This document shows positions 3,346-7,810 of a stretch of DNA of 64,000 nucleotides, one piece after another. A model generated the notes under the pieces. It saw only the letters and a program-made list of their open reading frames with translations. It had not been told where the DNA came from and searched no databases. Location: NCBI RefSeq assembly GCF_018350175.1, contig NC_058382.1, positions 56,918,001 to 56,982,000 on the forward strand. Direction: 5' to 3'. Position 1 is the stretch's first letter, and each line of letters opens with the position of its first letter. The translations under genes were made by a program, and so were the position numbers. This stretch comes from Felis catus (Eukaryota).

Positions 3346-3834
3346 TAGTGCATTCATTCCAACTGCTAGACAGGATCCGTCGGATGAATCCTGCGGAGCG
3401 TACTCCTCAATCAGCAGACACGCCATGATTACTTACGGTGCCCTTCTACAATCGACGCTATTGCAGGAATCTGGAATCTGTTTTCCACCAGCTTCTCAAG
3501 GGAGTGGTAGGCAGACGGCAAGCCCCGCGCTGGGTCTGGTTTCGAGGCAGAATTGGAACTCACATCTAGCAGAGCCTGGATAAACTAGCAAGGAGTAGTT
3601 CGCGTGTGATGGTAAAGAAAAAAGTGTTGTGTGGGTGCATGTGGGTGTGTACACAGAGAGGAGAGAAAATAATTGAGTGGCCACTCACACACATCACCCG
3701 CCATAAACCCAGTTACACGATAGCAAAGCCTGACTCTCGATGACGTTGCTTTGAAGAACCAAGGCACATGGCAGGATGCTGTTCACTCATCAGCTACTCT
3801 AGACTGCCAGGGGGGTTTTAAAATGGAGACTTCC

Positions 3835-4026
3835 GGGGTGCCTGGGGGGCTCAGTTGGTTACGTGTCCGACTTCGGCTCAGGTCATGATCTCACGGTTCG
3901 TGAGTTTGAGCCCCACGTCGGGCTCTGTGCTGACAGCTCTGAGCCTGGAGCCTGCTTCGGATTCCATGCCTCTCCCTGACTTGTGCTCTGTCTCTCTCTC
4001 AAAAATAAAATAAATGTTTAAAAAAA
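3835..4026 (+). mobile_element. SINEC_Fc; 5' member of the composite insertion
   Basis: ggggtgcctggggggctcagttggtt head, CT region and A-rich tail. Confidence 0.95.
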
Positions 4027-4033
4027 TGTTTTG

Positions 4034-5376
4034 GAGCAATCCTAAAATTTGTATGGAACCACAAAAGACCCCAAATAGCCAAAGTAACATTGAAGAAGAC
4101 CAAAGTGGGAGGCATCACAATCCCAGACTTTAGCCTCAGCTACAAAGCTGTAACCATCAAGACAGCATGATATTGGCACAAAAACAGACACATAGACCAA
4201 TGGAATAGAATAGAAACCCCAGAACTAGACCCACAAAAGTATGGCCAACTAATCTTTGACAAAGCAGGAAAGAATATCCAGTGGAAAAAAAGACGATCTC
4301 TTTAACAAATGGTGCTGGGAGAACTGAACAGCAACATGAAGAAGAATGAAACTAGACCACTTTCTTACACCATTCACAAAAATAAACTCAAAATGGATGA
4401 AGGACCTGAATGTGAGACAGGAAACCATCAAAACCCTAGAGGAGAAAGCAGGAAAAAACGTCTCTGACCTCAGTCTCAGCAATTTCTTACTTGACACATC
4501 TCCAAAGACAAGGGCATTAAAAGCAAAAACGAACTACTGGGACCTCATGAAGATAAAAAGCTTCTGCACTGCAAAGGAAACAATCAACAAAACTAAAAGG
4601 CAACCCACGGAATAGGAAAAGATATTTGCAAAGGACATATCAGACAAAGGGCTAGTATCCAAAATCCATAAAGAACTCACCAAACTCCACACCCAAAAAA
4701 CAAATAATCCAATGAAGAAATGGGCAGAAAACATCAATAGACACTTCTCTAAAGAAGACATCCAGATGGCCAACAGGCACATGAAAAGATGCTCAACGTC
4801 GCTCCTCATCAGGGAAATACAAATCAAAACCACACTCAGATACCACCTGACGCCAGTCAGAGTGGCTAAAACGAACAAACCAGGTAACTACAGATGCTGG
4901 AGAGGATGTGGAGAAACGGGAACCCTCTTGCACTGTTGGTGGGAATGCAAACTGGTGCAGCCGCTCTGGAAAACAGTGTGGAGGGTCCTCAAAAAATTAA
5001 AAATAGATCTACCCTATGACCCAGCAATAGCACTCCTAGGAATTTACCCAAGGGATACAGGAGTGCTGATGCATAGGGGCACTTGTACCCCAATGTTTAT
5101 AGCAGCACTTTCAACAGTAGCCAAATATGGAAAGAGCCTAAGTGTCCATCAACTGATGAATGATAAAGAAATTCTGGTTTATATACACAATGGAATACTA
5201 CATGGCAATGAGAAAGAATGAAATCTGGCCTTTTGTACCACGTGGATGGAACTGGAGAGTGTGATGCTAAGTGAAATAAGCCATACAGAGAAAGACAGAT
5301 ACCATATGTTTTTACTCTTATGTGGATCCTGAGGAACTTAACAGAAGACCGTGGGGTTAGGGGAAGGGGGAAAAAA
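4034..5376 (+). mobile_element. L1 (L1_Fc-like) ORF2 3' portion plus start of 3' UTR, disrupted
   Basis: ORF fragments [23 protein letters not shown] and the C-terminal knuckle [18 protein letters not shown]. Contains stops and frameshifts. Ends early in the 3' UTR with no terminal poly(A). Confidence 0.95.
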
Positions 5377-5389
5377 GGGGGGGGGGATC

Positions 5390-6292
5390 CCGACATCCAG
5401 GAGCTCTGACAGGCGCCTTATTCCAGCCACCGCCACTTCCTGCTGCAGTGAAGGGGCAGCTCCGAGTGTGGACCAAACACGAGAGCAAGCTGATGGCACA
5501 TCATCCCGAAAGACGAGGAATCGCTTAGGTGAGTTGTGAGGCCGGCACCTATATTCGGATGCTGTGTGTGCAGCTGGGTTTGTTGTTGGGAATGGGGGGT
5601 CAGATGCAGGAACTTTGGGGGGTTCATACTCTGGTGACAATGGAGTATGACAACGACAAGGATGAGAGCCACGTGCAGTGAGCCATTTACGCTCTGGAAA
5701 ACCCACTGCCTTCTCATAAACGGCCGCTTGTGAAAGACAATGCGAGGAGGGCACTCTGCCGTGGGGCACAGATCACACGTGCAGGTGCCCTCCGATCTGA
5801 GGACGGCGTCACAGTCAATCAGGAGGTGGCGGTCATCACCACCAAGGGGAAGCAGCCTGCACGGCTATGCATCAGTGGCCGCAGCAAGGATCTCCGCCCG
5901 TGACTGTGACACGGCAGCCAAGATCGAGAGAGTCATCATGGAGAGAGACACCGGCCCTTAGAAGTGGGGTTTAGGTCCAATGGCAGGTCAGAAGAGCCTG
6001 ATGGTCAAACAGGGCCTTCTGGATAAGCACGGCAGGCCCACGGGGAGCACGCCTGCCACCTGGAAGCGGGAGCACATGGACCACAGTGAGTCCGCAGAGA
6101 GAGGTACGGGGCAAAGCAGTAAAAGCCCCACGAGGAGGGCCGCCTGGGTGGCTCAGCCTGTTAAGCGTCTGACTCTTGATTTCCGCTCAGGTCATGATCT
6201 CACGGCTCGTGGGTTCAAGCCCCATGTGGGGCTCTGTGCTGATAGAACCTCCTTGGGATTCTCTCTCTCCCTCTCTTTCTGCCCTTCCCCAG

Positions 6293-6353
<61 letters not shown>

Positions 6354-6940
6354 AAAATAGATAAATTTTTTTAAAGCCCCACAAGGAATGGCCAAAGTGG
6401 GGAAAGGCCCAAAGCAGACGGGAGAGCATAAAAGCGACCTCTCTGCATCTGGTCAGGAAGGAAAAGAAGAGTAAGGATAAGAAAGCCCAAGTGGCTCTAG
6501 AGAGTGTGGGCGATCCACGAGATGGGGACAGTGACACCACCAAAAGAAAAGGAAGAAAAAGCAAGAAATAAAAGTAGAAGTGGTTTCTGAGTACTGGAGA
6601 CCACTTGAAGCACTGTGTCCAGTTGGGAGGAGAAATTAAAGCCTTATTGAGAAAACAGAATCGCTTTTTCGTTCTGAACAGGATGGAACCCAGGTCCCAG
6701 AAAGGGTGCGGAGTTCCGGTACATGTTAGCTGTGACCCGAGAACTCAGTGATGTCACCTGCTGTGGTCATCCCATCCCGTCCTGTTTTAAGGCTCTAAGG
6801 GTGAGGGAGGCAGGTTTGATGCCATTGGCTTCTCTGCTTGGGAGAGTTGGGAACGTTCTTTCACACTCAGCACAGCCCAGGAAATATCTGCAGCTGTTTC
6901 CTGATGGCTGTCTTAACATCATAGCTCGCCCCTGGTTTGC
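5390..6940 (+). pseudogene. DKC1: Processed, 5'-truncated dyskerin pseudogene (CDS homology to about 6593, then 3' UTR)
   Basis: Intronless frames read [105 protein letters not shown] and the Lys-rich tail DGDSDTTK...VEVVSE. Multiple stops, frameshifts and deletions. The following sequence resembles the recalled DKC1 3' UTR. Confidence 0.93.
6137..6372 (+). mobile_element. Older SINEC subfamily (ctcttgatttc variant) nested in the DKC1 pseudogene
   Basis: TSD AAAGCCCCACRAGGA at 6122-6136 and 6373-6387; long (CT)n tract. Confidence 0.93.
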
Positions 6941-6963
6941 AAGAACCCACTTACAAAGTGTCT

Positions 6964-7181
6964 GGGGGCGTCTGGGTGACCCAGTCGGTTAAACGTCTGA
7001 CTTCGGCCCAGGTCGTGATCTCATGATCTGTGAGTTCAAGCCTCACGTCGGGCTCTGTGCTGACAGCTCAGAGCCTGGAGCCTGCCTTGGGTTCTGTGTC
7101 TCCCTCTCTCTCTCTGTACCTCCTTTGCTCGCACTCTCTCTCTCAGAAATGAACATTAAAAAAAACTTTTCTTAAAAAACA
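6964..7181 (+). mobile_element. SINEC_Fc; 3' member of the composite insertion
   Basis: gggggcgtctgggtgacccagtcggtt head to A-rich tail, followed by TAAAATGGAGACTTCC. Confidence 0.95.
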
Positions 7182-7597
7182 TAAAATGGAGACTTCCTAC
7201 CTGTGCTTGTTGAAATACACATTCCCAGGGCCATCCAGCCTGTGGAACCAACATCCAAGGTGACAGTGGCCTCCACACAGACCTAGTGTTTGCATATATT
7301 TACACAATATTTTTAATACTAAATACACATGCCTGCTACTCCCAATCCATACATTAAAATCAGTACAACTTAACCTATATGTGTAGATTAAAAGGAATAT
7401 AAATAATGGGGCAGTACTTTCTTCTTATCAACAAGGAATTTTCCTGGGCCCCCTACTTTAGAAACTCAAGGCCTACAGAGGCCATTGGTGAGCAGGTCCC
7501 CAAAGATTGCCCACTTCTCTCTCAGCTGACCGCTAGGATCACAACAACTCCAAGGCGGAATTGCCAGGTAACTCCTAAGAAACTCACATTCATTTTT

Positions 7598-7810
7598 TAA
7601 AAATTTTTTTGAATGTTTATTTATTTTTGAGAGAGAGACAGACTGAAAGCAGGGGAAGGGCAGAGAGAGAGGGAGACACAGAATCCGAAGCAGGCTCCAG
7701 GCTCCAAGCTGTCAGCACAGAGCCCGATGTGGGGCTCGAATCCATGAACTGTGACATCGTGACCTGAGCCGAAGTCGGACGCTCAACCGACGGAGCCACC
7801 CAGGCGCCCC
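7598..7810 (-). mobile_element. SINEC_Fc
   Basis: Ends ccaggcgcccc; diverged TSD aactcacattcatttt / aactcatgttcgtttt. Confidence 0.95.

What the first reader, a model, noticed from the sequence alone, without database searches (positions are those of the whole stretch)
3819..7197. 3.35-kb composite insertion (SINE-L1-DKC1 pseudogene-SINE) bracketed by a single 16-bp target-site duplication
Seen: TAAAATGGAGACTTCC occurs at 3819-3834, immediately before the head of SINE 3835, and again at 7182-7197, immediately after the A tail of a different SINE (6964). The left copy sits in TT|AAAA, the L1 endonuclease consensus. Neither terminal SINE shows its own separate TSD. Inference: the block behaves as one insertion event, or as cargo loaded into one SINE. 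Possible routes: (a) retrotransposition of a read-through or chimeric RNA primed on the last SINE tail; (b) integration of a SINE-bearing DNA segment or circle by SINE-SINE recombination; (c) nested insertion into the first SINE tail. In each case SINEs act as the ends of a composite element carrying foreign sequence.
Basis: partly seen in the sequence, partly recalled or inferred. Interest (0 to 1): 0.8.

Follow-up and report, generated by a model that had tools for sequence, protein, structure and literature searches.

The report
Retrocopy pile-up sharing one target duplication
A 3.3-kb patch flanked by a perfect 16-base repeat is a pile-up of retrotransposed pieces (two SINEs, an L1 fragment and a re-copied old dyskerin pseudogene) laid down by the L1 copying machinery at one target site, an intricate but ordinary by-product of retrotransposition and not a new kind of mobile element.

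Summary
TAAAATGGAGACTTCC occurs only at 3819-3834 and 7182-7197. It abuts the head of SINE1 and the A-tail of SINE3, and the left copy sits in TTTT/AAAA.

The interior runs SINE1, GG, L1 fragment, DKC1 pseudogene fragment (with nested SINE2), SINE3, all on the + strand.
- SINE1 stops at its T-run terminator and has no A-tail.
- The L1 fragment is cut at both ends.
- The pseudogene fragment is spliced but internal: it has no poly(A) and stops 392 nt before the true poly(A) site.

The parts differ in age at non-CpG sites: L1 4.8%, SINE1 5.4%, pseudogene 17.6% from its parent gene. The pseudogene shares 11 derived sites with a second retrocopy on contig C46. It was therefore copied from an older pseudogene lineage, not from DKC1 mRNA. 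No donor locus is in this genome.

My reading is L1-mediated retro-insertion at one endonuclease site. The cargo RNA ended in SINE3's tail. About 0.4 for two rounds, the second into the first insert's poly(A) with a small deletion. About 0.3 for one round with template switching. SINE-SINE recombination is weakly hinted (p about 0.04-0.06). Other species' orthologous loci could not be examined. This is a known kind of event, of modest interest.

The parts
3816..3823 (+). Pre-insertion L1 endonuclease site TTTT/AAAA (bottom-strand nick opposite 3819/3820)
   Evidence: Read directly from the sequence. The motif is as described in PMC11838501 (introduction read) and PMC9599045 (introduction read).
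3819..3834 (.). Left copy of the target-site duplication (15-16 bp; the first T is ambiguous)
   Evidence: exact, one of only 2 copies in the window; family D11.
3835..4032 (+). SINE1: full-length Can-type tRNA-derived SINE from its first base to its T-run terminator (TGTTTT, T-run 4029-4032), with no A-tail
   Evidence: Other SINE copies align from 3835. Of 18 copies with the A-run/T-run tail motif, only SINE1 lacks A's after the T-run. Body divergence is 6/111 non-CpG and 5/24 CpG.
4033..4034 (+). GG filler belonging to neither SINE1 nor L1
   Evidence: all 14 L1 copies shown carry L1 sequence (none GG) before the shared A[G/A]CA[A/T]TCC; 13 of them read CA.
4035..5376 (+). L1 fragment truncated at both ends: last third of ORF2 (stop codon 5219-5221) plus 3'UTR up to an internal A-run
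   Evidence: ORF2p residues 1037-1207, E = 5e-78. 93-94% identity to 39 genomic copies. 9 of 9 other copies continue at least 130 nt beyond the A-run. 63/1316 non-CpG and 6/24 CpG differences from the majority of 29 relatives.
5377..5407 (+). Junction zone (G10 run, then ATCCCGACATCCAGGAGCTCT) that aligns patchily both to the L1 3'UTR and to the DKC1 exon 7/8 boundary
   Evidence: per-base match to 29 L1 copies continues patchily to 5407, and a DKC1 local alignment starts at 5380. The L1 AGAGACTCT and DKC1 AGAAACTCT motifs were read.
5408..6136 (+). DKC1 pseudogene fragment, part 1 (spliced exons, many stops and indels)
   Evidence: Exon-wise 75-88% identity to the parent gene on C47. PDB dyskerin E = 1.6e-11. 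PUA domain E = 1.2e-7.
6137..6372 (+). SINE2, an older-type Can SINE with a (TC)n tract, nested in the pseudogene. Its own TSD is AAAGCCCCAC[G/A]AGGA at 6122-6136 and 6373-6387
   Evidence: D14, 14 of 15. Divergence 15/142 non-CpG and 4/10 CpG from 11 relatives.
6388..6963 (+). DKC1 pseudogene fragment, part 2: the C-terminal coding region and the first ~370 nt of the 3'UTR. It ends at parent position C47:126802477, with no poly(A)
   Evidence: The true poly(A) site, 126802869, is defined by the C17 retrocopy's A-tail.
6964..7181 (+). SINE3: full-length Can-type SINE with a complete tail (ATTAAA 7155-7160, terminator CTTTTCTT 7166-7173, A6 then CA 7174-7181)
   Evidence: Body divergence 11/111 non-CpG and 6/24 CpG. 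Best genomic matches are 82-88%.
7182..7197 (.). Right copy of the target-site duplication

Best explanation
The block was written by the L1 endonuclease/reverse-transcriptase machinery at one TTTT/AAAA site. It is not a SINE-bounded mobile unit.

Shown:
- A 15-16-bp TSD with the endonuclease motif.
- All parts in one orientation.
- An A-tail only at the 3' end.
- The DKC1 segment is spliced but is an internal fragment, and it descends from an older pseudogene lineage that also left a sister copy on contig C46.

Inferred, my preferred order (about 0.4), two rounds:
1. A 5'-truncated L1 inserted and made the TSD. It was capped at its 5' end by a full-length SINE1 RNA that ends at its pol III terminator. 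This is a SINE/L1 chimera of the U6/L1 or Alu/L1 type; alternatively SINE1 was already resident.
2. Later, a transcript of the old pseudogene locus was reverse-transcribed. That transcript already carried SINE2 and ended in SINE3's terminator/poly(A) signal. Synthesis was primed from the first insert's poly(A). Its 5' end was joined back in the L1 3'UTR at a patch of similarity, deleting the last 130 nt or more of the L1.

Nearly as likely (about 0.3) is a single round. Synthesis starts on the SINE3-tailed pseudogene transcript, switches template to L1 RNA at the same patch of similarity, and then switches to the 3' end of SINE1 RNA.

The confidence given covers the class, L1-mediated RNA-level assembly in one or two rounds.
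For: - TSD and endonuclease site.
- Can-SINE TSDs have a mode of 15 bp and begin with A4 (PMC11699766, abstract). Here the TSD is AAAATGGAGACTTCC.
- SINE1 ends at T4 with no A-tail, unlike the 17 other T-run-bearing copies. In T+ Can SINEs pol III stops at this terminator before the A-tail is added (PMC9599045, introduction).
- GG filler at the SINE1/L1 joint.
- Full-length, sense-oriented pol III RNA 5' of a truncated L1 inside one TSD is the known U6/L1 and Alu/L1 pattern (PMC4476161 passages; PMC11838501 section on 113 Alu/L1 chimeras).
- SINE1 and L1 are the same age: 6/111 against 63/1316, p = 0.82.
- The pseudogene is older: 208/1183 non-CpG, 48/113 CpG and 23 indels, against 6 indels in the L1.
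- It is sister to the C46 copy: the site pattern psi=C46|parent=C17 occurs 11 times and the two alternative splits 0 and 0 times in 101 columns. P(11 or more) is 0.0003-0.04 if the two copies were independent.
- The pseudogene lacks its last 392 nt and poly(A), so its 3' end is set by SINE3's tail, which carries ATTAAA and a terminator.
- Sense Can-SINEs commonly end transcripts (PMC11699766, abstract).
- Patchy L1/DKC1 similarity at the joint.
- Tripartite structures are explained in print either by double template switching or by a second insertion into the 3' end of the first (PMC4476161 conclusion; PMC2104539 abstract).
- An intact 16/16 TSD has probability 0.21 at the L1's age but 0.012 at 13% divergence.
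Against: - No donor locus holding this pseudogene segment exists in the genome. The C46 sister covers only mRNA 1376-1883 and has no L1 or SINE arrangement like this one.
- The psi/C46 split (9 + 9 private changes) looks somewhat older than the L1: P = 0.011-0.068.
- SINE3 is nominally more diverged than the L1 (11/111, p = 0.04), although not more than SINE1 (p = 0.31), and its CpG decay equals theirs. Its age class is unresolved.
- An L1 fragment as an internally entered middle template is not a described common class of chimera.
- The two-round version needs an insertion without a TSD and with a target deletion.
- Several AATAAA/ATTAAA hexamers lie inside the block.
- No orthologous empty or intermediate site was seen.
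Confidence: 0.72

Rival explanations
1. Single-round four-part chimera; this is a sub-variant of the best explanation, listed apart because it is the reader's 'one event'. Reverse transcription starts on the poly(A) of the SINE3-tailed pseudogene transcript (or on SINE3 RNA itself), jumps to L1 RNA, then jumps to the 3' end of SINE1 RNA. All of this happens before second-strand cleavage, giving one TSD.
For: - One perfect TSD with no internal TSDs or A-tails.
- SINE1 ends at its RNA 3' end, the terminator.
- GG filler.
- Similarity patch at the L1/pseudogene joint.
- SINE1 and L1 are of equal age.
- Double template switches flanked by one direct repeat are documented (PMC2104539 abstract; PMC4476161 passages).
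Against: - It needs two or three switches, one of them entering L1 RNA internally. Internal entry was never seen for U6/L1 chimeras (PMC4476161 passage).
- L1 as a middle part is not a described class.
- The source of the pseudogene RNA is missing from the genome.
Confidence: 0.3
2. DNA-level loading of cargo into one resident SINE. A young SINE inserted here and made the TSD. A segment SINE-L1-pseudogene-SINE from another locus was then copied or moved in by homologous exchange between SINEs, by gene conversion or by integration of an excised circle. SINE1 and SINE3 would be reciprocal mosaics.
For: - Reciprocal mosaic signal. SINE1 columns 1-79 plus SINE3 columns 80-150 have 4/126 non-CpG differences. 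The complementary halves have 14/115. 3.7% of within-copy shuffles and 6.1% of 3660 random SINE pairs reach this contrast.
- A moved circle would explain the missing donor and the pre-aged cargo.
Against: - CpG-site decay shows no mosaic: 6 against 5 changes on 24 positions each.
- The breakpoint was chosen after seeing the data.
- No donor relic exists. The 3'UTR remainder occurs only in the parent, C17 and C46, and each is continuous across the breakpoint.
- The odd SINE1/L1 and L1/pseudogene joints would still need retrotransposition-type explanations at the donor.
Confidence: 0.1
3. L1 3' transduction. A full-length donor L1 had the pseudogene (with SINE2 and SINE3) nested in its 3'UTR A-run. 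Its transcript ended in SINE3's tail and retrotransposed in cis, 5'-truncated at 4035, with SINE1 added by one template switch or already resident.
For: - ORF2 runs to its stop codon within the fragment's lineage.
- The L1 stops at an A-run, a favoured insertion target.
- The 3' end is a SINE poly(A) signal.
- Cis preference would be satisfied. That 3' transduction is common is recalled knowledge, not taken from a call.
Against: - No donor and no sibling insertions carry this L1/pseudogene joint: only the window covers the whole of 5250-5520, against 39 other hits that stop at the A-run.
- If SINE3 were nested after the donor L1, it should not look older than the L1 (11/111 against 63/1316, p = 0.04).
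Confidence: 0.08
4. The pseudogene is ancient and in situ, and the younger elements simply inserted around it. The 16-mer pair would then be unrelated to the pseudogene's arrival.
For: The pseudogene is the oldest part, and no donor is needed.
Against: - The flanks carry no DKC1-derived sequence: local alignment scores are at the level of shuffled controls.
- The missing 3'UTR remainder and upstream exons are nowhere in the window.
- A perfect 16-mer abutting a SINE head and a SINE tail cannot be chance.
- The L1 lacks its 3' end, so it is not a simple insertion into the pseudogene.
Confidence: 0.02

Closest known systems
U6/L1 and Alu/L1 chimeric insertions (template switching or RNA ligation during L1 TPRT): PMC4476161, PMC11838501
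   Same: A full-length pol III RNA copy in sense orientation lies directly 5' of a 5'-truncated L1. There is one TSD and an endonuclease motif. The two partners are of equal age (SINE1 5.4%, L1 4.8%).
   Different: Here the L1 lacks its own 3' end and poly(A) and is followed by 1.8 kb of non-L1 cargo. The 5' partner is a carnivore tRNA-derived T+ SINE that ends at its terminator.
Tripartite chimeric retrogenes (double template switch): PMC2104539; discussed in PMC4476161
   Same: Three or more unrelated transcripts are fused head to tail inside one short direct repeat. The literature leaves open the same ambiguity between a double switch and a second insertion into the first insert's 3' end.
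   Different: There are four recognisable pieces here. One of them is a transcript of an already decayed pseudogene that itself carried SINEs.
L1 3' transduction and retrocopying of read-through transcripts
   Same: Non-L1 sequence is carried 3' of an L1 and ends at a downstream poly(A) signal.
   Different: The L1's own 3' end is absent, and neither a donor nor sibling insertions were found in the genome.
Nested insertion into A-rich tails, with insertion-mediated target deletion (recalled: Gilbert 2002, Symer 2002, Callinan 2005; not read)
   Same: Same-orientation stacking at A-tracts. The inner insert has no TSD. There is microhomology at the 5' joint, and target sequence has been lost (the L1 3' end).
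   Different: No intermediate state has been observed. The cargo comes from a pseudogene transcript, not from an mRNA.
Can SINEs as T+ SINEs and as poly(A)-signal donors: PMC9599045, PMC11699766
   Same: The tails follow the pattern AATAAA-like signal, T-run terminator, A-tail. The TSD is about 15 bp and begins with A4. A sense SINE ends a longer transcript.
   Different: Those papers describe dogs and other canids. This is a feliform-type copy, and the terminated transcript is a pseudogene locus.
Composite transposons bounded by two copies of a small element
   Same: Two similar elements in direct orientation bracket foreign sequence inside one TSD.
   Different: SINEs encode nothing and have no terminal recognition by a transposase. 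SINE1 and SINE3 are only 80% alike. No second copy of the composite exists, so there is no sign that it ever moved as a unit again.

Membership tests
Endonuclease-dependent L1 TPRT insertion | Target-site duplication of about 7-20 bp flanking the insert | tested here: met
   16/16 identical, and only two copies in 64 kb.
Endonuclease-dependent L1 TPRT insertion | TT/AAAA-type cleavage motif at the 5' edge of the TSD | tested here: met
   GGGGGGTTTT|AAAATGG at 3810-3826.
Endonuclease-dependent L1 TPRT insertion | A-rich tail at the 3' end, next to the 3' TSD | tested here: met
   CTTTTCTTAAAAAACA at 7166-7181. The tail is short (A6).
Endonuclease-dependent L1 TPRT insertion | Empty orthologous or allelic site with one copy of the TSD | not testable with these tools
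   All 24 of 24 listed runs are the same organism. No other eukaryote genomes are held.
pol III RNA/L1 chimera (U6/L1, Alu/L1 type) | 5' partner full-length, in sense orientation, ending at its RNA 3' end and fused to a 5'-truncated L1 | tested here: met
   SINE1 runs from its first base to the T4 terminator, then GG, then L1 from ORF2.
pol III RNA/L1 chimera (U6/L1, Alu/L1 type) | The L1 part keeps its own 3' end and poly(A) | tested here: not met
   The L1 stops at an internal A-run, while 9 of 9 other copies continue at least 130 nt further.
pol III RNA/L1 chimera (U6/L1, Alu/L1 type) | Both parts arrive at the same time | tested here: inconclusive
   Divergence is equal: 6/111 against 63/1316, p = 0.82. 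Arrival across species could not be examined.
L1 3' transduction | A donor L1 locus whose downstream flank equals the carried sequence | tested here: not met
   There is no second copy of 5390-6136, 6376-6960 or the L1/pseudogene joint in the genome.
L1 3' transduction | The carried sequence ends at a poly(A) signal followed by an A-tail | tested here: met
   ATTAAA at 7155-7160, with the A-run from 7174.
Primary processed pseudogene of DKC1 | Intron-less copy of the mRNA | tested here: met
   Nine exon segments of the parent gene, plus a possible exon-7 trace in the junction zone, are joined without introns.
Primary processed pseudogene of DKC1 | Ends at the gene's poly(A) site with an A-tail and its own TSD | tested here: not met
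   It stops 392 nt short of the poly(A) site defined by the C17 and C46 retrocopies and abuts the SINE3 head.
Primary processed pseudogene of DKC1 | Derived directly from the parent mRNA | tested here: not met
   It shares 11 derived sites with the C46 copy, against 0 and 0 for the other two splits. Independence has P = 0.0003-0.04.
SINE-SINE recombination or circle integration | Terminal SINEs are reciprocal mosaics of a resident and a donor SINE | tested here: inconclusive
   Non-CpG contrast is 4/126 against 14/115, p = 0.037-0.061. CpG changes are 6 against 5, showing no contrast.
SINE-SINE recombination or circle integration | A donor locus, or a relic (solo SINE next to the rest of the pseudogene) | tested here: not met
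   The 3'UTR remainder is found only in the parent, C17 and C46, and none is broken at the junction.

The most novel reading that the evidence does not exclude
The 3-kb cargo (L1 fragment plus old pseudogene) was excised from its original locus as a circle by recombination between two flanking SINEs. It then re-integrated by homologous exchange into a young resident SINE at this site. That would be a cut-and-paste move of non-mobile DNA using SINE homology. It would explain at once the single TSD, the pre-aged cargo, the missing donor and the reciprocal mosaic hint in SINE1 and SINE3.
Probability: 0.07. Interest if true: 0.7.

Novelty: new member of a known kind. Interest (0 to 1): 0.3.

Why it matters
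This is a worked example showing that a perfect target-site duplication around several repeats does not by itself prove one insertion. Dating each part separates fresh pieces (L1, SINE1) from a passenger that was already old.

It documents a pseudogene of a pseudogene. A dyskerin retrocopy lineage was transcribed and re-copied at least once more (sister copy on C46), with a Can-SINE tail acting as its 3' end. That is relevant to how carnivore SINE tails truncate and mobilise neighbouring sequence.

If orthologous loci show only empty and full states, this would be a four-part L1 chimera in a carnivore. That would extend the catalogue of template-switch products, but it would not be a new mechanism.

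Tried and rejected
1. An eyeballed resemblance between the flanks or the 16-mer and the DKC1 3'UTR, which would have made the pseudogene in situ. Local alignment scores equal those of shuffled controls, so this was rejected.
2. RNA or DNA editing as the cause of the pseudogene's excess divergence. The spectrum is strand-symmetric (A>G 38, T>C 40, G>A 42, C>T 34), so this was rejected.
3. The C46 copy as the complementary relic of a cut donor. It overlaps the window's copy by about 115 nt, has no upstream pseudogene and no similar L1 or SINE arrangement, so this was rejected. It is a sister copy instead. No significant TSD was found for it.
4. The 13-of-15 match between 4018-4032 and 7156-7170 (D6) as an inner TSD. 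Both stretches are the family-typical SINE tail, so it is uninformative.
5. Splicing as the origin of the L1/DKC1 joint near an exon start. No donor-site GT is present, and the pseudogene probably extends into the upstream exon.
6. ARAGORN found no tRNA-like gene in the SINE heads. Pfam found nothing in the L1 ORF2 tail.
7. Sequencing runs. All 24 of 24 listed are one organism, from 9 studies, holding 0.68-0.85 of the sampled words. Many of those words are repeats.
8. Earlier notes of this scan: three look-ups returned nothing.
9. Further loci around SINE1-like copies could not be fetched. SINE dating therefore rests on 63 copies harvested from loci already held.

Full report
**Observation**

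The 16-mer TAAAATGGAGACTTCC is present exactly twice in the window, at 3819-3834 and 7182-7197. No further hits appear even at 2 mismatches; 0.04 are expected, and 0 of 100 shuffles gave two. The left copy touches the first base of a SINE (3835). The right copy follows the A-tail of another SINE (ending at 7181). The left context, GGGGGGTTTT|AAAATGG, is the L1 endonuclease motif. Both flanks are single-copy in the genome. The window lies at G000:C39:56918001-56982000.

**Anatomy (all parts on the + strand)**

- SINE1, 3835-4032. It begins at the family's first base and ends at TGTTTT. I found 18 SINE copies with the A-run/T-run tail motif among the 60 whose tails I could extract. Fifteen of the other 17 continue with AA and two with CTTAAA. 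SINE1 alone has no A's after the T-run.
- Filler, 4033-4034 (GG). None of the 14 L1 copies shown has GG here; 13 of them read CA before the shared A[G/A]CA[A/T]TCC.
- L1 fragment, 4035-5376. It covers ORF2p residues 1037-1207 of 1275 (E = 5e-78), the ORF2 stop codon at 5219-5221, and 3'UTR up to an internal A-run. Nine of 9 other copies run on for at least 130 nt beyond that A-run. The fragment is therefore truncated at both ends.
- Junction zone, 5377-5407. It aligns patchily to the L1 3'UTR and equally to the end of one DKC1 exon and the start of the next. The two partners share, for example, AGAGACTCT and AGAAACTCT.
- DKC1 fragment, 5408-6963. It is spliced and is dyskerin (PDB 7bgb_G E = 1.6e-11; PUA domain E = 1.2e-7).
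- SINE2, 6137-6372, interrupts the DKC1 fragment and has its own TSD, 14 of 15 bases.
- The DKC1 copy stops at parent position C47:126802477. The gene's poly(A) site is at 126802869, as shown by a separate retrocopy on C17 that ends there in A11. The last 392 nt and the poly(A) are therefore missing, and the SINE3 head follows directly.
- SINE3, 6964-7181, has a complete tail: ATTAAA, then CTTTTCTT, then A6 and CA.
- No other DKC1-derived sequence is in the window. The flanks are not DKC1-like.

**Ages**

- L1: measured against the majority base of its 29 closest genomic relatives, the fragment differs at 63/1316 non-CpG sites (4.8%) and 6/24 CpG sites, with 6 indels.
- SINE1 and SINE3: measured against 62 other SINE copies, the SINE1 body differs at 6/111 non-CpG and 5/24 CpG sites. 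SINE3 differs at 11/111 and 6/24.
- SINE2 differs at 15/142 and 4/10 from 11 relatives.
- Pseudogene: it differs from the parent's spliced exons at 208/1183 non-CpG sites (17.6%) and 48/113 CpG sites, with 23 indel events.
- Tests: L1 against pseudogene gives p = 2e-25. L1 against SINE1 gives p = 0.82. SINE1 against SINE3 gives p = 0.31. L1 against SINE3 gives p = 0.04. L1 against SINE2 gives p = 0.009.
- The substitution spectrum of the pseudogene is strand-symmetric, so editing is not the cause.
- An intact 16/16 TSD has probability 0.21 at 4.8% divergence, 0.034 at 10% and 0.012 at 13%.

The TSD, the L1 and SINE1 belong to a young tier. The pseudogene, and probably SINE2, were already old. 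SINE3 is unresolved: its best genome-wide matches (82-88%) are no worse than SINE1's (79-90%).

**Source of the pseudogene**

No other copy of 5390-6136, of 6376-6960 or of the L1/pseudogene joint exists in the genome. TruB_N homology is found only in the parent gene.

Searching with the missing 3'UTR remainder found the parent, the C17 retrocopy (90%) and a third retrocopy at C46:33948308-33948825. The C46 copy covers mRNA 1376-1883 and has an A-tail. It overlaps the window's copy by about 115 nt.

In 101 ungapped columns of a four-way alignment:
- the window and C46 copies share a state against parent plus C17 at 11 sites;
- the two alternative groupings occur 0 and 0 times;
- private changes are 9 (window), 9 (C46), 7 (parent) and 6 (C17).

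If the two copies were independent retrocopies of mRNA, about 3-6 such sites would be expected; P(11 or more) is 0.0003-0.04. They are therefore sister copies of an older pseudogene. The window's DKC1 segment is a copy of a pseudogene, not of the mRNA.

C46 itself cannot be the donor of the whole segment. It has no upstream pseudogene and no young L1. The immediate source is absent from this assembly.

**Mechanism**

The pseudogene/SINE3 joint looks like an ordinary SINE insertion into the pseudogene's 3'UTR: the SINE head follows AAAGTGTCT. But the sequence after SINE3's tail is the target site, not the rest of the 3'UTR. The unit 'pseudogene...SINE3 tail' must therefore have been copied through an RNA that ended in that tail. 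Can SINEs are T+ SINEs whose tail holds poly(A) signals and a pol III terminator before the A-tail (PMC9599045, introduction read). Sense Can-SINEs often end dog transcripts, and their TSDs have a mode of 15 bp and begin with A4 (PMC11699766, abstract read).

SINE1, ending exactly at its terminator and fused through GG to a 5'-truncated L1, matches the U6/L1 and Alu/L1 chimera pattern (PMC4476161, passages read; PMC11838501, introduction and Alu/L1 section read, reporting 113 such human cases).

Two assemblies fit.
- (i) Two rounds. A SINE1-capped L1 inserts and makes the TSD. The SINE3-tailed pseudogene transcript is then reverse-transcribed from the L1's poly(A) and joined back at the similarity patch, removing the L1's 3' end.
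- (ii) One round with two template switches.

The literature states the same ambiguity for tripartite structures (PMC4476161 conclusion; PMC2104539 abstract). I put (i) at about 0.4 and (ii) at about 0.3. My reasons are that insertion into A-tails with a small target deletion is common (recalled, not read here), while L1 RNA entered internally as a middle template is not a described class.

**Rivals**

- SINE-SINE recombination or circle integration. This predicts reciprocal mosaics. The best split, at column 79, gives 4/126 against 14/115 non-CpG differences. That contrast is reached by 3.7% of shuffles and 6.1% of 3660 random pairs. CpG changes show no contrast, 6 against 5, and no donor relic exists. 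I put this at about 0.1.
- L1 3' transduction from a donor L1 with the pseudogene nested in its 3'UTR. This is possible at about 0.08, but it has no donor and no siblings.
- An in-situ ancient pseudogene. This is contradicted.

**Limits**

All 24 of 24 listed public runs belong to one organism, from 9 studies, and hold 0.68-0.85 of the sampled words, many of which are repeats. Neither fixation nor any other species was examined, and the decisive presence/absence test remains open. SINE dating uses small numbers of sites and a majority proxy that may not match each copy's source subfamily. Supplements of the cited papers were not consulted.

**Verdict**

The TSD is real and the block is a product of L1-mediated retrotransposition at one site. 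It carries a re-copied old pseudogene whose RNA ended in a SINE tail. It is an intricate member of a known kind (chimeric or nested L1-driven insertions), not a SINE-bounded composite element.

Noticed in passing
L030 (G000:C17:10298000-10306000), retrocopy at about C17:10301642-10302419, minus strand: A separate 5'-truncated DKC1 retrocopy covering only the 3'UTR (mRNA 1118-1883). It is 87.8% identical to the parent over 781 nt and ends in A11. It defines the gene's poly(A) site.
   Followed up: yes
L061 (G000:C46:33947632-33949031), positions 677-1195: A third DKC1-derived retrocopy (3'UTR 1376-1883 plus A10, 79% to the parent). It shares 11 derived sites with the window's pseudogene, implying a pseudogene lineage that was itself re-copied. 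No significant TSD was found for it.
   Followed up: yes
window 5408-6963 against the parent exons: The pseudogene's substitutions are unusual for neutral decay: weak-to-strong 108 against strong-to-weak 97 (only 60 outside CpG), C<->G transversions 44 against A<->T 7. This hints at GC-biased fixation or a local mutational bias.
   Followed up: partly
window 6296-6352: A long (TC)n microsatellite (about 28 units) inside SINE2's polypyrimidine region.
   Followed up: no
window 7599-7810 against 6964-7181: An inverted SINE lies 0.4 kb downstream of SINE3. Arms 7075-7113 and 7662-7700 are 92% complementary over 39 nt (I6), so the pair could form a hairpin in a transcript.
   Followed up: no
window 5377-5386: A G10 run at the L1/pseudogene joint. 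The corresponding DKC1 exon has G6 and L1 copies have GAGGGAGGG, so it is either an expanded run or untemplated bases.
   Followed up: partly
G000:C47:126802027-126802869 (L029): The parent DKC1 3'UTR seems to evolve about as fast as its retrocopies: 7 private changes against 6 in C17 over 101 columns.
   Followed up: no
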